Shown: one piece after another, positions 12,121 through 16,657 of the stretch
How positions within the stretch are numbered: position 1 is the first letter of the stretch
How the letters are laid out: every line of letters starts with the position of its first letter
Assembly: GCA_963702845.1 (NCBI GenBank)
Contig: OY969763.1
Coordinates: 534,719-598,718 of the forward strand
DNA from: an uncultured Verrucomicrobiae bacterium
Lineage (GTDB): Bacteria > Verrucomicrobiota > Verrucomicrobiia > Limisphaerales > Palsa-1400
Length of the DNA: 64,000 nucleotides
Reading direction: 5' to 3'
Notes under the pieces: generated by a model
Told to the model about the DNA's origin: nothing
The model's input: the letters and a program-made list of their open reading frames with translations, nothing else
The model's database searches: none
Position numbers and translations under genes: made by a program

Positions 12121-12248
12121 GTTTGGATCCAATTCCAAGCTCTGGGCCAGCCAACGGGGGCTGATTGCTTATCAATGTATAGTAACGTTACTACTTGTCA
12201 ACGCTGTCGGTTTTGCTGTTTGGGTTTGTGGCAAAACGATAAATGGAA
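12121..12248 (+). repeat. copy 1 of a ~130-bp intergenic direct repeat (about 85 % identical to 16533..16657)
   Basis: Aligns to the second copy with a few substitutions/indels, both in the same orientation: accaaacgaagttYggatccaattcMaag...ggggctgattgcttat...aacgttactacttgtc...gttttgg/ctgtttgggtttgtgg. Confidence 0.7.
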
Positions 12249-12318
12249 ATGTAAAGGACTGACCCTGCGAGCGTAGGGACAAAGAATTGAGGGTGGGGGG
12301 TGCAGTTGCTGCCAGAAA

Positions 12319-15300
12319 TTATGGCAGGCGTATTCGGTAGAAGCGTGTCGAATAGTTTGTCCACTGCGGGTCGGTGTAAAAGGAGATGTTTCCGGAAAGT
12401 GTGTTGGTAGAGACAGGTGTCCAATCGGTCAGGTTGGTGGTGGCTTCGACCACTGCGACAAGATTGCTGCTGCCGATCATGTTAAATCCAAATTGGTTGG
12501 CTTGTAGGCCGAAGGTGCTGTCGGCGAGTTGAATCATTAAACCGTTCCATAACACGACGGGAAGGCCGTCGAGAGTTGAGCCCCATCCTGTGGTCCCCGA
12601 GAAGTAATAGACCGTTGCCGGCTGGGTTTGGGCAAATGCGTTTGGATCCACTCCAGGTGCGTTGCCTTGAAAAATGACGTTGCGGAGGTTGGGGCACAAT
12701 TCGAAGACGTCGTTGGAGATGCCGGTGATTTTTGGGCCGAGGATTATGGTATTGAGATCCGAACAGGAAGCAAAGGCATAGCTGGCCAGGGTAGTGACGT
12801 TTGCGCCGAGAATAATGCTGGTCACGTGTGTGCCGGCGAATGAGTAGGTGGCGATGGTGTTGACGGTGTCTGGAACTCTGTAGCTACCCCTAAGACCTGT
12901 TGGGGAACTGGATCAGGGTGGTTTGGTTTTTGTTGAACAGAACGCCGCCCAGACTGCTGAACGTTAAATTTTGGGGCGACACCGAGATAGAGGTAAGGGT
13001 GTCGCATCCGGCAAGGGCTTGTGAGCCGATTGTATTTACATTGGTCCCGATATTAATGCTCGTGAGGTTTGGAGAATCGTAGAAAGCATCGAGCAAAATG
13101 CTGGTGACTGTGGCGGGAACGGTGTAACTGCCGGCGAGGCCGGGAGGATATTCGACGAGAGTCGTTTGGCTTTTGTTGAAGAGGACGCCGTTGAGGCTGC
13201 TGTAATTGGGGTTGAGTGAGTTGACGGTTATCGCCGTGAGATTGGTGCAGCCGAAAAACACGGGATTGAGGATGCTGGTTACGTTTTGGGGGAGGCTGAT
13301 ATTTGTAAGGCTTGTGCATTGGTCAAATGCGCCGGTCTTGATGGTGGTCAGCCCCGTGCCAAGGGCGACACTGGCGAGGTTGGAGCATGAATTAAAAGCG
13401 TAGTTGCCGATCGTTGCGATGCTGTTTGGAAGGGTGATGGAAGTCAGGGCCGTGCAATGATCGAAGCTGCCGCCAGTGCTGGTAAGCCCCGGGGTAAAGG
13501 TGACGTTGATCAGGTTGGAACAATAACCAAATGATTCGTCGCCGAAGGTGGTTATTTTGGGTGGGATAATGACGTTAGTGAGGCCGCCGCAACGGTAAAA
13601 TGCATTCATTCCCATGGTAGTCACGTTGGTGCTGAGGACGAGATTGGTCATGGCGAAGCACTGGTCGAAGGCGTAGTTGCCAATGCTGGTGATGGAATTG
13701 GGCATAACTACACTGGTGAGATTGGTGCAATTTTCAAAAGCGTTATCGCCAATCGACGTTATGCCGTTCGAGAGAGTGACGCTGACCAGAGCAGGACAAT
13801 TGTTAAAGGCGGATGCTCCGATTGAAGTGATTTTGCCGGGAATGACAATATTGGTCAGACTTTGGCATTGCGTGAAGCTGCTAGCGGCGATTGAGGTGAC
13901 GTTGGTTCCAATGGTGACGTTGGCGAGGCTGATGCAATTTGCAAACGCAGCACCGAGGGTCGTGACTGTATTCGGGATCGTGATAGCTGTCAGGTTGCTG
14001 CAACTCGAAAAGGCGGACGCGCCAATGTTCAGAATGCCATCCGCCAAGGCAACGGAATTCAAGGAACCGCACCCCTGGAAGGCAGAGGCTCCAATGACTT
14101 TGACGCTTCCAGGGATTGCAACGCCAGTCAACTGATAGCAGTTCATAAACGCCTGGGTTCCAATATTGGTAACACTGCCCGGAATGCTGACGGACGTTAA
14201 GCTCGTGCAATTGCGAAAGGCACTGTTACCGATATTGGTGACGCTATTCGGGAGAACGATGCTGCTGAGGCTCGAACAACCGGAGAAAGCGGAGGTGTTG
14301 ATAACGGGAACTTTGTTGCCGATCGTGACACTTGAAAGACTGGTGCAGTTGAGGAATGCGCTGCTGCCGAGATTGGTGACGGTGTTTGGGATGCTGACGG
14401 CCAGACTTGAGCAATTCTGAAATGCGGCAACTCCGATGCTCGCGACCGTTGCCGGGAGCGTCATATTGGTCAAGTCGGTGCAGCCTTCGAACGCTGTCGC
14501 GGCGATATTAGTAAGGCCAATTGGCAAAGAGATGCTTCCGAGGCTTGAGCAATTTTGAAACGTGGAGGTCGCGATGTTTTTGACGTTCGCAGGAAGAGTG
14601 AGGCTGGCGAGTGTTGCGCAACCTTGAAAGGCGGTGGTGCCGATGGTGGTGACGGTGACGGGAATGCTCACGTTATTAAGGTCAGTGCAATCTTGAAATG
14701 CGGTGTTTCCGATGTTGGTAGCAATTGAAGGAAGAATGACGTTGGTGAGGCTAGTGCAACCATAACAGAGAAAGTTGCCAACGTTCTTCATCGAGCCGGG
14801 CAATTTATCGAGGCGAGGCTGGAACAATCCTGAAATGTTCTGTCGCCGATTGAAACGACAGTGGTCGGGATGCTGATCGAGATCAGGTTTGCGCACCCGT
14901 CAAAGGCGGCAGTGGCGATATTGGTGACATGCGCTGGAATAAAAACGGAAACGAGATTGGAACAGTTGCCGAACAGGCTGGATCCGATGCTGGCCAGGTT
15001 GGTGCTGAGAGACGCGTTTGTCAGACTGAGCAACTTAGGAACACACTGACACCAAGGTTGGTGACAGCATCGGGAAGAATGATGCTTGGAAGGTTCGTGC
15101 AGTCGGCAAAGGTGTCGTCACCGATTGAGGTAACATTGGGCGGAATAGTGATGTTGGTGAGGTCGAGCAACCAGAGAATGCGTAGTAACCAATCGATTTG
15201 ACGCCGAGAGGAATGTTGACGGTGCTGAGACTGACGCACCCTTGAAAGGAGTAGTTCGGAAGAGTGGTGATGGCAGTTCCCAGATAAGCGTTTGTTAAAG

Positions 15301-15717
15301 AATTACATCCGTTAAAAACTCCGACGCCGAAATTGGTGACAGTATCGGGCACGGAAACAGCACTCAAGTAGAAGCAGCCATAAAAAGCGCTATCACCTAT
15401 AGTCTTTAACCCAGATCCCAGATTTATATTGGTCAGGTAAATATTTTGGTCGAACGCTCCCGCGCCGAGGTTTGTGACGCTGTTCGGGATGGTGACATCG
15501 TTGAAGGAGTTGTTGTGCTGAAATGCACTGTCCGCGATGCTGGTGACGGAAGGGCCGTGATGGTGTCCGGGATGTTGACCGTCCCGCCTGGACCAGAATA
15601 GCCCGTAATGGTAATCGTTCCGTTGTTTGTGGTGTAGTTGAATTGCGCCTGACCGGACGATGGCATTATCGCGACAAATACAAAAGATAACCGCAATAAG
15701 GTGAGGATGGTTTTCAT
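12319..15717 (-). pseudogene. BspA-type leucine-rich-repeat (LRR_5) surface protein, broken into at least 6 frames; carries the FYR-type C-terminal tail
   Basis: Consecutive minus-strand ORFs (15433..15801, 15035..15367, 15021..15239, 14788..15033, 12890..14896, 12319..12825) all encode the ~23-aa BspA-like unit (IPNSVTSIGNYAF..C.SLTSV.L). The N-terminus is MKTILTLLRLSFVFVAIMP, a signal peptide. The C-terminus is ...EATTNLTDWTPVSTNTL...RFYRIRLP. Frame breaks may be sequencing or assembly errors in this highly repetitive gene. Confidence 0.7.
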
Positions 15718-15811
15718 CAATTGCGCTGCGCGCCTAGGTTCACAAGTCACCTGGGCCTGCCTCGATTTGGTAGACAGGTTGTGTCTGAGTGCGCATGACA
15801 CATTGGGATTA

Positions 15812-15925
15812 TTAGTTTAGTTGCGTTTCAAAGTCTACAGGCGATTGGTAACCGAGGGCGCTGTGGAGCCGCCTGCGGTTATAAAAAATCTCCAATCCAT
15901 TCCTGTCCCCCAATTCGAGGCAAGT
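15812..15925 (-). mobile_element. short C-terminal remnant of an IS3-family transposase (integrase-core tail)
   Basis: The ORF 15812..16057 ends ...[27 protein letters not shown], the characteristic IS3 OrfB C-terminus (..FYNxxRxHSxLGYxSPxxFE). The upstream part of the ORF is not transposase-like, so only a ~35-aa relic remains. Confidence 0.45.
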
Positions 15926-16109
15926 CCAAGGCAAATTCTTATCAGTGCAGCCGAGCAGAACGACAGTGTAATGGTGAAACCATGTCGAGGCGGCGAACCA
16001 CTGGATGGCGCGGGCAGCTTCCTTCTTTGCTGAGAGAAATTTCAGGGCACTCCGCATTGCGGGCGTTGTATCTCCGTCGTTATGTATACAACGTAAACCG
16101 AAGGAAATT

Positions 16110-16394
16110 ATGAAGATTCAAATGATGATTGTTACGGTGGCTCTTGGGCTGATGGTTGGTTGCGCTTCCAACAACGTTAATGAACCTGCAGGAGCGCAGG
16201 CCATGGGGACACGTTTCAGCGAGCTTCCGCTGGCAGTGCAACACACAATCCGGACACAAAATCCCACGGGCCAAATTGCTGACATCGACAAGGAGAGGCG
16301 TTCAGGCCGCGTCATTTATGAAGTTCAATTCGCTGAACCAGGGCTAAATCCAAGACTGCATATCGCGGAGGATGGCACTTTGTTGATGAAATAA
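16110..16394 (+). CDS. small lipoprotein (PepSY-like?)
   Basis: MKIQMMIVTVALGLMVGC has a lipobox, followed by an ~75-aa domain (RFSELPLAVQHTIRTQ...GRVIYEVQF...). A GC hairpin ATTGGCCGCT-N7-AGCGGCCAAT lies downstream at 16430..16456. Confidence 0.45.
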   Translation: MKIQMMIVTVALGLMVGCASNNVNEPAGAQAMGTRFSELPLAVQHTIRTQNPTGQIADIDKERRSGRVIYEVQFAEPGLNPRLHIAEDGTLLMK

Positions 16395-16532
16395 AGTGCT
16401 CAAATTTTAACAGCACATGCGACGACTAGATTGGCCGCTTATTAAGAGCGGCCAATCCGGGGGTAGTTTTCAAACCGAAAGCGGAACGTCTGGCCCGCAT
16501 CCCAAACTCTTCGTAACACCGAACTTCGGCCG

Positions 16533-16657
16533 CACAACAATACCAAACGAAGTTCGGATCCAATTCAAAGTCCCGGTCCCAAAGGGGGCTGATTGCTTAT
16601 TATTGTATTCTAACGTTACTACTTGTCTTCGTCATCGTTTTGGTTTTGGGTTTGTGG
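16533..16657 (+). repeat. copy 2 of the ~130-bp direct repeat (see 12121..12248)
   Basis: Same alignment as copy 1. It lies between the lipoprotein gene and the transglutaminase-like gene. Confidence 0.7.

What the first reader, a model, noticed from the sequence alone, without database searches (positions are those of the whole stretch)
12121..16657. About 130-bp direct repeat pair brackets a 4.4-kb block holding the degraded BspA-LRR gene, an IS3 transposase relic and a small lipoprotein
Copies at 12121-12248 and 16533-16657 are about 85 % identical and in the same orientation. Between them lie the fragmented LRR gene, a 35-aa IS3 OrfB C-terminal relic (…[22 protein letters not shown], 15812-15925) directly upstream of the LRR start, and a lipoprotein gene. 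Just outside are the 735-bp intergenic region ahead of the giant gene and the degraded transglutaminase-like gene. This looks like the scar of an insertion or duplication event: repeat-mediated acquisition of a surface-protein cassette with IS decay. Alternatively the 130-mer is a dispersed intergenic element or small RNA.
Basis: seen in the sequence. Interest (0 to 1): 0.5.

Follow-up and report, generated by a model that had tools for sequence, protein, structure and literature searches.

The report
Old duplicated promoter-like repeat, later insertion
Two diverged copies of a roughly 150-bp non-coding segment are real, but in relatives they flank only a small lipoprotein gene, so the leucine-rich-repeat gene and transposase scrap between them are a later insertion into one copy: ordinary genome flux in a variable spot.

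Summary
The repeat pair is real. Copy A is 12105-12236 and copy B is 16536-16690. They are about 80-83% identical, in the same orientation, and are the only two copies in the 64 kb.

The pair is not the scar of the 4.4-kb block. Two related Limisphaerales MAG contigs (L006 and L007, about 87-89% nt identity) carry copy A directly next to the 94-aa lipoprotein gene. L006 also carries copy B, 726 bp from copy A, with only that gene between them. The window has an extra ~3.7-kb segment (12237-15988). It holds the BspA-type LRR gene plus the last ~20 codons of an IS3 transposase, and it sits in the distal edge of copy A.

The element shows no significant fold, covariation, Rfam hit, coding constraint or terminal inverted repeats. 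Its best-conserved core is a sigma-70-like promoter on the minus strand (TTGACA-16-TACnnT). In copy A this promoter faces the giant gene.

A short-read contig with no substitutions against the window over 7.9 kb (L001) leaves the window exactly at 12236/7. It carries other genes and a further partial copy, so the element lies at strain-variable junctions. Genome-wide copy number could not be tested.

Gene breakage is not specific to the block. Most genes from 12.8 to 28.4 kb, including pyruvate dehydrogenase, are frameshifted, possibly through assembly error. Low interest.

The parts
12105..12236 (+). Repeat copy A. The proximal ~130 nt are intact. The distal ~20-40 nt of the family consensus (GTTGGGACTGA.ACC...) are missing because the inserted segment begins at 12237. 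A weak possible continuation, GGACTGACCC at 12256-12265, is not significant.
   Evidence: It has no substitutions against L001 up to 12236 (two G-run length differences), and homology stops there.
16536..16690 (+). Repeat copy B, full length (~150 nt). It starts 145 nt after the lipoprotein stop codon and ends ~75 nt before the start of the transglutaminase-like ORF.
   Evidence: The orthologous copy is at L006 1209-1343.
12174..12201 (-). Sigma-70-like promoter core inside copy A: TTGACA, 16 nt, TACATT (10 of 12 matches). It points toward the giant gene. The 16-nt spacer contains the palindrome TAGTAACGTTACTA.
   Evidence: best-scoring site in 11400-17600.: the same architecture is present in all four distinct full copies.
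16602..16629 (-). Homologous promoter-like core inside copy B: AAGACA, 16 nt, TACAAT. It points toward the 3' end of the lipoprotein gene.
12237..15988 (.). Segment present in the window but absent from relatives L006 and L007. It is a ~3.7-kb insertion into the distal edge of copy A. The edges are uncertain by about 15-35 nt (between 12237-12272 and 15975-15988).
   Evidence: BLAST of L006 and L007 against the window, alignment and junction tests. The repeat spacing is 4432 nt in the window against 726 nt in L006.
12319..15716 (-). BspA-type leucine-rich-repeat surface-protein gene. It is full length, from the signal peptide MKTILT... to the C-terminal ...RFYRIRLP, but is interrupted by about three lesions (ORF pieces 15433-15801, 15035-15367, 12890-14896, 12319-12825).
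   Evidence: No paralogue in the window or in the fetched loci.
15812..15886 (-). Remnant of the extreme C-terminus of an IS3-family transposase ([27 protein letters not shown]). It lies 95 nt upstream of the LRR start codon.
   Evidence: about 20 residues match; E = 4.5e-4 and 5.7e-3
15989..16449 (+). Conserved lipoprotein module: 121-nt upstream region, CDS 16110-16394 (94 aa), and a perfect 10-bp-stem hairpin at 16431-16457. The same module, with the same left boundary, occurs in other metagenome contigs that lack the repeat.
   Evidence: L006-L010. The CDS is 93% nt identical to L006 with no indels.
6727..11583 (-). Giant gene (1618 aa; DUF7133, FG-GAP, HEAT and cytochrome c domains; named 'PVC-type heme-binding CxxCH protein' by NCBI for cluster members). 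It is the likely target of the copy-A promoter, through a ~590-nt leader (11584-12167).
   Evidence: The promoter assignment is an inference.
16761..18762 (+). DUF3857/transglutaminase-like gene, frameshifted (frames 3>1>2). It occupies the slot between copy B and the EVE gene, where L006 has a 142-aa zinc-ribbon-like gene.

Best explanation
The two ~150-bp repeats are old paralogous copies of a non-coding intergenic segment. In the ancestor of this Limisphaerales lineage they flanked a small lipoprotein gene: giant gene (-), intergenic region, copy A, lipoprotein (+), copy B, a variable gene, then the EVE gene.

The most constrained part of the element is a sigma-70-type promoter on the minus strand (TTGACA, 16 nt, TACnnT), with a palindrome in the spacer. 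I infer that copy A is the promoter and leader of the giant PVC-type heme-binding protein gene. Copy B would then be a duplicated promoter segment pointing antisense into the lipoprotein gene; it may be weakly active or decaying.

Later, in the window's lineage only, a ~3.7-kb fragment was inserted into the distal edge of copy A. It carries a BspA-type LRR gene sitting just downstream of an IS3 element, of which only the tail survives. This stretched the spacing of the pair from ~0.7 kb to 4.4 kb.

Shown: the repeats, their age relative to the insertion, the boundaries of the insertion, and the absence of RNA-structure or coding signals.

Inferred: promoter activity, which gene it drives, and IS3 involvement in the insertion.
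For: - The repeat pair is real and limited to two copies in the window.
- L006 (GCA_054313595.1) has giant gene, copy A', 94-aa lipoprotein, copy B', 142-aa gene, EVE. Both copies are in direct orientation, 726 bp apart. L007 (GCA_054317315.1) independently shows copy A' abutting the lipoprotein gene.
- Window homology to L006 and L007 breaks at 12209-12236 and resumes at 15989.
- The identity matrix is star-like: paralogues 69-83%, orthologues 72-77%. The duplication is therefore old.
- The promoter-like site in copy A is the best match in 6.2 kb, 10 of 12. Its -35 box, spacing and T1/A2/T6 of the -10 box are kept in all four distinct full copies. The block CGTTACnACTTGTC is invariant in all six copies, although the element as a whole is only 70-80% conserved.
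- It is the only promoter-like site the scan reports on the minus strand within the 735-bp region ahead of the giant gene.
- The IS3 tail lies at the right-hand side of the inserted segment.
Against: - Promoter-like hits are not enriched in the region overall: 7 found against 5.7 expected. No transcription data exist.
- The 16-nt spacer is conserved as well as or better than the -10 box, which is unusual for a plain promoter. It hints at a protein-binding site or some other role.
- Orthologous copies (72-77%) are less conserved than the neighbouring non-coding spacer 16395-16538 (90%). Most of the element is therefore not under strong constraint.
- The giant-gene orthologue in the more distant RYN_623 lacks the element altogether.
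- No inverted repeat or target duplication of an IS3 element was identified at the insertion edges.
- The LRR insertion is seen only in the window. The substitution-free short-read contig L001 shows a different junction at the same point, so a mis-join in one of the two assemblies is not excluded.
Confidence: 0.6

Rival explanations
1. The two repeats are the footprint (duplicated target or att-like ends) of the acquisition of the whole 4.4-kb cassette (LRR gene, IS3 relic, lipoprotein), or they mediated its capture.
For: Direct repeats bracket the block. An IS3 remnant lies inside it. The LRR part is missing from relatives.
Against: In L006 both copies exist with only the lipoprotein gene between them, and L007 independently shows copy A next to that gene. 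The extra DNA sits inside copy A and removes its distal end. The copies are only 80-83% identical, as diverged as orthologues. There is no integrase or recombinase in the 64 kb. The nearest tRNA is 26 kb away.
Confidence: 0.05
2. The element is a dispersed, possibly mobile or recombinogenic, intergenic repeat of this species. It marks junctions where gene blocks are exchanged, so the pair in the window is just two neighbouring members. The differing structures in the window and L001 would arise by recombination between copies.
For: L001 has 0 substitutions against the window over 7887 nt, yet leaves the window exactly at the end of copy A. It continues with a tail closer to copy B (73% against 58% identity over 33 nt, counted by hand on the alignment). 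An ECF sigma/DUF3738 gene and a DUF1559 gene follow, and that block is again closed by a partial copy in the same orientation. Different genes follow copy B in the window (transglutaminase-like) and in L006 (zinc-ribbon-like).
Against: No further copy was found in the other ~59 kb of the window or in L002, L003, L005, L008, L009 or L010. Three pattern scans of GTDB species representatives and JGI metagenomes gave no hits. No terminal inverted repeats are shared between copies and no target duplication was seen. The breakpoints fall at different positions in the element: about position 130 in the window, about position 78 in the partial L001 copy. The longest exact match between A and B is 17 nt, which is poor substrate for homologous recombination. 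L001 is a short-read de Bruijn contig and could itself be a chimera through a repeat.
Confidence: 0.2
3. The repeat encodes a structured small RNA or cis-regulatory leader, or a small membrane peptide.
For: A plus-strand frame (..QTKFGSNSK..RGLIAY.C.VTLLLV..) is open in four of five full copies, and a 3-nt indel between A and B preserves it. Small hairpins (CCAAAC-GAA-GTTTGG, CAGCC-n6-GGCTG) recur.
Against: No Rfam match, even at E <= 1. RNA and DNA folding energies are no better than shuffles on either strand. None of 24 predicted pairs shows compensatory change, and the covariation term is unfavourable on both strands. The B copies have no start codon for the frame, and the L001 copy breaks it. 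Amino-acid divergence between orthologues (about one third of residues at ~20% nt divergence, my count from the translations) looks neutral.
Confidence: 0.07
4. Part of what is seen is technical. The block and its broken genes reflect a poorly polished or mis-joined stretch of a long-read assembly at a strain-variable site, not biological decay of a cassette.
For: Most genes from ~12.8 to 28.4 kb are frameshifted. These include aceE, aceF and lpd (at least 9 frame changes), EVE (8-9 single-base indels in ~390 nt against an intact orthologue) and a sulfatase. Genes on either side of the zone are intact. Ten of eleven frame changes go the same way. The window differs from the Illumina-derived L001 by 0 substitutions and 3 G-run length changes, all within 330 nt of the 12236/7 breakpoint. 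The source is a single 6.03-Mb contig, and its deposited proteome already contains the truncated AceE piece.
Against: The repeat pair itself is confirmed in an independent assembly (L006). The lipoprotein CDS inside the zone has no indels. Indel density is very uneven: about 23 per kb in EVE against 1-2 per kb in the pyruvate dehydrogenase genes. The giant-gene-to-EVE neighbourhood is syntenic with L006 and RYN_623, so there is no gross chimera.
Confidence: 0.35

Closest known systems
Locally duplicated promoter or intergenic segment (segmental micro-duplication) in a flexible chromosomal locus
   Same: There are two diverged direct copies of non-coding DNA within about 0.7 kb in the ancestral state. 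The conserved core looks like a -35/-10 promoter. The copies sit between genes that vary among close relatives.
   Different: The mechanism of duplication is not identified. Promoter activity is not demonstrated. A third, partial copy exists in a contig with no substitutions against the window.
IS3-family insertion sequence remnants next to accessory surface-protein genes
   Same: The last ~20 residues of an IS3 transposase (..[15 protein letters not shown]..) lie at one edge of the extra 3.7 kb, 95 nt upstream of the LRR gene. This is a common signature of IS-associated acquisition followed by deletion.
   Different: No OrfA or catalytic core, no recognisable terminal inverted repeats and no target-site duplication are present. 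IS3 involvement in the insertion is an inference.
Integron attC sites / Vibrio cholerae repeats (about 120-130-bp repeats separating gene cassettes)
   Same: The size is similar. Copies are in direct orientation, moderately similar to each other, and lie between variable genes.
   Different: There is no long imperfect hairpin in single-stranded DNA, no RYYYAAC/GTTRRRY core sites at the ends and no IntI integrase in the 64 kb. The intervening genes run in both orientations and include a 3.4-kb gene.
MITEs and REP/ERIC-type dispersed intergenic repeats
   Same: It is a short non-coding repeat found only between genes, with small internal palindromes.
   Different: No terminal inverted repeats or target duplications are shared by the copies. 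There are only two copies in 64 kb and none in ~27 kb of relatives outside this locus. Genome-wide copy number is unknown.

Membership tests
Sigma-70-type promoter | -35 and -10 hexamers close to TTGACA/TATAAT, 16-18 nt apart | tested here: met
   Copy A: TTGACA-16-TACATT, 10 of 12. The same layout is present in all four distinct full copies.
Sigma-70-type promoter | A transcript start a few bases downstream of the -10 box | not testable with these tools
   No expression data. The predicted starts are near 12167 (-) and 16595 (-).
Structured small RNA / cis-regulatory RNA | Match to a curated RNA family | tested here: not met
   Rfam at gathering threshold on the whole window, and at E <= 1 on 11400-16900: nothing at the repeats.
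Structured small RNA / cis-regulatory RNA | Fold more stable than shuffled sequence, and base pairs kept by compensatory change | tested here: not met
   z-scores from -0.55 to +0.85 on both strands. 0 of 24 pairs show compensatory change on either strand.
Integron attC site | Imperfect inverted repeat that folds into one long hairpin as single-stranded DNA, with R''/R' core sites at the ends | tested here: not met
   DNA folding z-scores from -1.74 to +1.28, giving only several short hairpins. No end-to-end inverted repeat common to the copies. RYYYAAC/GTTRRRY are not at the ends (read from the sequence).
Integron attC site | IntI-type tyrosine recombinase next to the array | tested here: not met
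   No integrase or recombinase domain in any large ORF of the 64 kb.
MITE | Terminal inverted repeats and target-site duplication | tested here: not met
   Inverted-repeat search of four copies: nothing shared. One 9-of-11 end pair appears in L006 copy A only.
MITE / REP-type dispersed repeat | Many copies scattered over the genome | not testable with these tools
   The source genome (6.03-Mb contig) is in neither searchable DNA collection, and three pattern scans gave no hits. Within reach: 2 copies in 64 kb, 1 extra partial copy in L001, none in L002, L003, L005 or L008-L010.
Genomic-island att direct repeats | Short near-identical direct repeats at island ends, usually with an integrase and often a tRNA gene | tested here: not met
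   80-83% identity over 130 nt. No integrase. The only tRNA (Pro) is at 42458. Both repeats are present in a relative without the 'island'.
IS3-family insertion sequence | OrfA/OrfB transposase with a DDE (rve) core | tested here: not met
   Only profile positions 350-369 of 369 match. This is a remnant, not an element.
IS3-family insertion sequence | Terminal inverted repeats (TG...CA) and 3-5-bp target duplication | tested here: inconclusive
   No significant similarity or duplication at the two junctions. The expected right end would lie in 15717-15811, and I did not compare it with any reference IS.
Small protein-coding gene | Start codon, conserved open frame, purifying selection | tested here: not met
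   The frame is open in 4 of 5 copies, but the B copies have no start codon, the L001 copy breaks the frame, and amino-acid change is near neutral.

The most novel reading that the evidence does not exclude
The ~150-bp element is a lineage-specific junction module of a small cassette-exchange hotspot next to the giant gene. On this reading, different gene blocks are each bounded by a full or partial copy in direct orientation, and copies recombine or are targeted to swap blocks between strains. The blocks seen are the lipoprotein, the LRR gene with its IS3 scrap, ECF sigma with DUF1559, the transglutaminase-like gene and the zinc-ribbon gene. It would be an integron-like arrangement without a recognisable integrase.
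Probability: 0.08. Interest if true: 0.55.

Novelty: new member of a known kind. Interest (0 to 1): 0.18.

Why it matters
It matters little beyond this genome. The analysis dates the repeat as older than the LRR/IS3 insertion. It also gives a testable candidate promoter for a very large PVC-type heme-binding protein gene, and it documents a small hypervariable slot on both sides of that gene in Limisphaerales.

The practically useful by-product is a warning. About 16 kb of the window (12.8-28.4 kb), including the pyruvate dehydrogenase operon, is riddled with single-base indels that start at a strain-variable breakpoint. Pseudogene calls there should not be read as biology until the reads are checked.

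Tried and rejected
- Pattern scans for more copies all found nothing. I tried CGTTACNACTTGTCN{18,26}GGGTTTGTG in genome contigs and in metagenome contigs, and TAACGTTACTACTTGTCAAC in metagenome contigs. The source genome and its close relatives are not in those collections.
- A viral-contig scan with an 18-nt pattern (15 specified bases) gave 20 hits. They match only the seed (nhmmer at most 16 bits), so they are chance matches.
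- Look-ups of window proteins right of the block (26759-27793, 25877-26434, 31232-32770), of the window's own lipoprotein sequence (16110-16394) and of P0064 were not on record. The right-hand flank in L001-type strains could therefore not be retrieved.
- The homologue search with the transglutaminase-like fragment gave nothing closer than 53% identity, so that gene gives no synteny information.
- Small-peptide reading: rejected.
- Structured-RNA reading: rejected.
- attC-like and MITE readings: rejected.
- An eyeballed ~25-nt duplication at the two insertion junctions did not beat shuffled controls.
- A literature search for the run accession and for a Limisphaerales complete genome gave nothing usable.

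Full report
**Observation.** The two sequences exist.
- Aligning 12081-12300 with 16493-16710 gives a shared core of about 130 nt. The core contains long identical blocks: ACCAAACGAAGTT, GGATCCAATTC, GGGGGCTGATTGCTTAT, TAACGTTACTACTTGTC and TTTGGGTTTGTGG. The repeat finder reports the same pair (families D10 and D13).
- The two 17-mers occur only at these two places in the 64 kb, even with three mismatches allowed. Chance expectation is 0.03-0.09.
- A profile built from all known copies finds nothing else in the window with nhmmer --max.
- My coordinates are 12105-12236 for copy A and 16536-16690 for copy B. Core identity is 80-83%.
  - LRR_5 (BspA-type) pieces on the minus strand.
  - An 81-codon ORF whose last ~20 residues match the very end of IS3 transposases (Pfam rve_2 E = 5.7e-3; NCBIfam NF033516 positions 350-369 of 369, E = 4.5e-4).
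  - A 94-aa lipoprotein-like ORF.
  - A 1618-aa DUF7133/cytochrome c/HEAT protein to the left.
  - A broken transglutaminase-like gene to the right.

**Where the sequence comes from.**
- Cluster look-ups place the window on a single 6.03-Mb contig held by NCBI and ENA.
- The giant protein belongs to a 90% identity cluster of Limisphaerales (Verrucomicrobiota) MAG proteins named 'PVC-type heme-binding CxxCH protein'.
- That genome is in neither searchable DNA collection. Three pattern scans that must hit copies A and B exactly returned nothing.

**The decisive comparison.** Contig L006 (GCA_054313595.1, 2794 nt) is about 89% identical to the window in coding DNA.
- Its gene order is: start of the giant gene, intergenic region, a repeat copy (L006 1920-2069), the 94-aa lipoprotein gene, a second repeat copy (1209-1343), a 142-aa zinc-ribbon-like gene, then an intact EVE-domain gene.
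- Both copies lie in the same orientation, 726 nt apart start to start, with only the lipoprotein gene between them.
- L007, from a second MAG (GCA_054317315.1), independently shows copy A abutting the lipoprotein gene.
- BLAST of these contigs against the window aligns them up to 12209 on one side and from 15989 on the other. L001, which continues the family consensus, has no substitutions against the window up to 12236.
- The window therefore carries an extra ~3.7 kb (12237-15988) that interrupts the distal edge of copy A. This segment is the LRR gene plus the IS3 tail. The edges are uncertain by 15-35 nt, because short apparent matches at both junctions do not beat shuffled controls.
- No paralogue of the LRR gene or of the IS fragment occurs elsewhere in the window or in the fetched loci.
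- The repeats therefore predate the insertion and are not its scar.

**Age of the duplication.** Over the core, positional orthologues are 72-77% identical (winA/L006_A 77, winB/L006_B 72). Paralogues are 69-83% identical (winA/winB 80, L006_A/L006_B 69, winA/L006_B 83).
- The tree is star-like. The duplication is about as old as the split of these lineages.
- The element as a whole drifts about as fast as the surrounding intergenic DNA. It drifts faster than the 144-nt spacer after the lipoprotein gene (90%) or the lipoprotein CDS (93%, no indels).
- The more distant RYN_623 MAG (about 76-83% nt identity) has neither the repeat nor the lipoprotein between its giant-gene orthologue and its EVE gene.
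- Three other metagenome contigs (L008-L010) carry the lipoprotein module, with nearly the same left boundary (15988/9 in L008 and L009, 16017 in L010), in other contexts and without the repeat.

**What the element is not.**
- It has no Rfam match, even at E <= 1.
- As RNA or as single-stranded DNA it folds no better than shuffles on either strand.
- RNAalifold finds no compensatory pair on either strand.
- No terminal inverted repeats or target duplications are common to the copies.
- It has none of the attC hallmarks, and no integrase gene occurs in the 64 kb.
- A plus-strand frame is open in four of five copies. However, the B copies have no start codon, the L001 copy breaks the frame, and the amino-acid changes look neutral.

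**What it most likely is.** The only block invariant in all six copies is CGTTACnACTTGTC.
- On the minus strand this block is the -35 box and spacer of a sigma-70-like promoter: TTGACA, then 16 nt containing the palindrome TAGTAACGTTACTA, then TACATT. It is the best consensus match in 11400-17600 (10 of 12).
- All four distinct full copies keep the layout. The -35 box is TTGACA or AAGACA. The -10 box is TACATT, TACAGT, TACAAT or TACGCT. A conserved ATAAGCAATCAGCC follows.
- In copy A the promoter points at the giant gene. It is the only such site the scan reports in the 735-bp upstream region.
- I therefore infer that copy A is the promoter and start of a ~590-nt leader of the giant gene, and that copy B is a duplicated promoter segment pointing antisense into the lipoprotein gene.
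- This is inference from sequence alone. Promoter-like hits are not enriched in the region as a whole (7 found against 5.7 expected). The conserved spacer suggests a binding site may be the real constraint.

**Strain-level variation.** L001, a 10.8-kb Logan contig from run ERR10755946, encodes an identical giant protein.
- It matches window 4350-12236 with no substitutions and only three G-run length differences, at 11911, 12144 and 12156.
- At 12236/7 it departs. It completes the repeat with a tail that resembles copy B more than the ancestral A tail (73% against 58% over 33 nt, counted by hand).
- It then carries an ECF sigma/DUF3738 gene and a DUF1559 prepilin-like gene. After those comes a partial repeat copy in the same orientation, starting at the centre of the palindrome, and then a convergent membrane-protein gene.
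- Two readings are possible. Either essentially one clone exists in two structural forms to the right of copy A, for example through recombination with another copy elsewhere in the genome. Or one of the two assemblies is mis-joined through the repeat.
- In either case the element lies at variable junctions, and more than two copies exist in this lineage. This keeps a 'dispersed or recombinogenic repeat' rival alive at about 0.2. The test I could not run is a search of the whole genome.

**Gene breakage is not a property of the block.** Using E. coli AceE, AceF and Lpd as probes, the pyruvate dehydrogenase operon at 19.5-24.9 kb is split over at least nine frame changes.
- EVE has 8-9 single-base indels in ~390 nt relative to the intact L006 gene, and these are not confined to homopolymers.
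- The transglutaminase-like gene runs through frames 3>1>2.
- A sulfatase at 27.8-29.2 kb is split, and a ThuA gene is a fragment.
- Stop-to-stop ORF lengths collapse between about 12.8 and 26 kb, and the split sulfatase extends the broken zone to about 28.4 kb.
- Ten of eleven frame changes in plus-strand genes go the same way.
- The three indel differences from the Illumina-derived L001 all lie within 330 nt of the breakpoint.
- This pattern fits an unpolished long-read consensus over a strain-variable segment at least as well as it fits real decay. Against a purely technical cause, the lipoprotein CDS is clean and the indel density is very uneven. I leave this unresolved and flag it.

**Verdict.**
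- Observation: confirmed.
There is an IS-associated insertion, but the repeats are older and independent of it.
- The thing itself is an old, locally duplicated, promoter-like intergenic segment in a small hypervariable locus of a Limisphaerales chromosome. It is a new member of a known kind and of low general interest.

Noticed in passing
window 12800-28400: Most genes in this ~16-kb stretch are frameshifted. They are the LRR gene, the transglutaminase-like gene, EVE (8-9 single-base indels in ~390 nt), aceE/aceF/lpd (at least 9 frame changes), a ThuA fragment and a split sulfatase. The 94-aa lipoprotein CDS and a NUDIX ORF at 25877-26434 show no break, and genes on both sides of the zone are intact. 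Ten of eleven frame changes go in the same direction. The cause may be real decay of housekeeping genes or, more likely, local failure of assembly polishing.
   Followed up: partly
window 11911, 12144, 12156 (versus L001): The window and the short-read contig L001 show 0 substitutions in 7887 nt. Their only differences are three G-run length changes, all within 330 nt of the structural breakpoint at 12236/7.
   Followed up: partly
L001 1-2890: In a contig with no substitutions against the window, the DNA beyond copy A is an ECF sigma factor fused to DUF3738, then a DUF1559 prepilin-like protein, a partial repeat copy (L001 512-580) and a convergent membrane-protein gene. None of these is in the 64-kb window apart from a 40%-identical DUF1559 paralogue at 47044-47688.
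   Followed up: partly
window 2680-5567: The 941-aa NAGPA/Laminin_G_3 gene (2685-5510) is absent, at the same boundaries, from both relatives (L002 of RYN_623 and L005 of GCA_054313595.1). It is a second lineage-specific insertion, on the other side of the giant gene and its C39-peptidase neighbour.
   Followed up: partly
window 18806-18870 and 19262-19337: The 64 nt spanning the upstream region and start of the EVE gene are 100% identical to L006. The wider stretch 18806-18894 is 95.6% identical to the more distant RYN_623, although neighbouring DNA is only 76-89% identical. The stretch ahead of aceE is also unusually conserved (~93%). This may be a conserved regulatory region.
   Followed up: no
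window 16431-16457 and 16519-16557: A perfect 10-bp-stem hairpin follows the lipoprotein gene. A perfect 10-bp inverted repeat (CCGAACTTCG ... CGAAGTTCGG, 19 nt apart) bridges the spacer and the proximal end of copy B, and it is kept in L006.
   Followed up: no
window 11700-11800: The leader/intergenic region of the giant gene contains short reiterated motifs (CAACCAGCTACT, CTACAACTTGCAAC-like). It is 81% conserved with L006 near the gene but only 61% further upstream.
   Followed up: no
window 36153-38071: A radical-SAM ORF (36153-37490) overlaps a 369-aa ORF in another frame (36962-38071). This may be another frameshift or a genuine overlap, outside the main broken zone.
   Followed up: no
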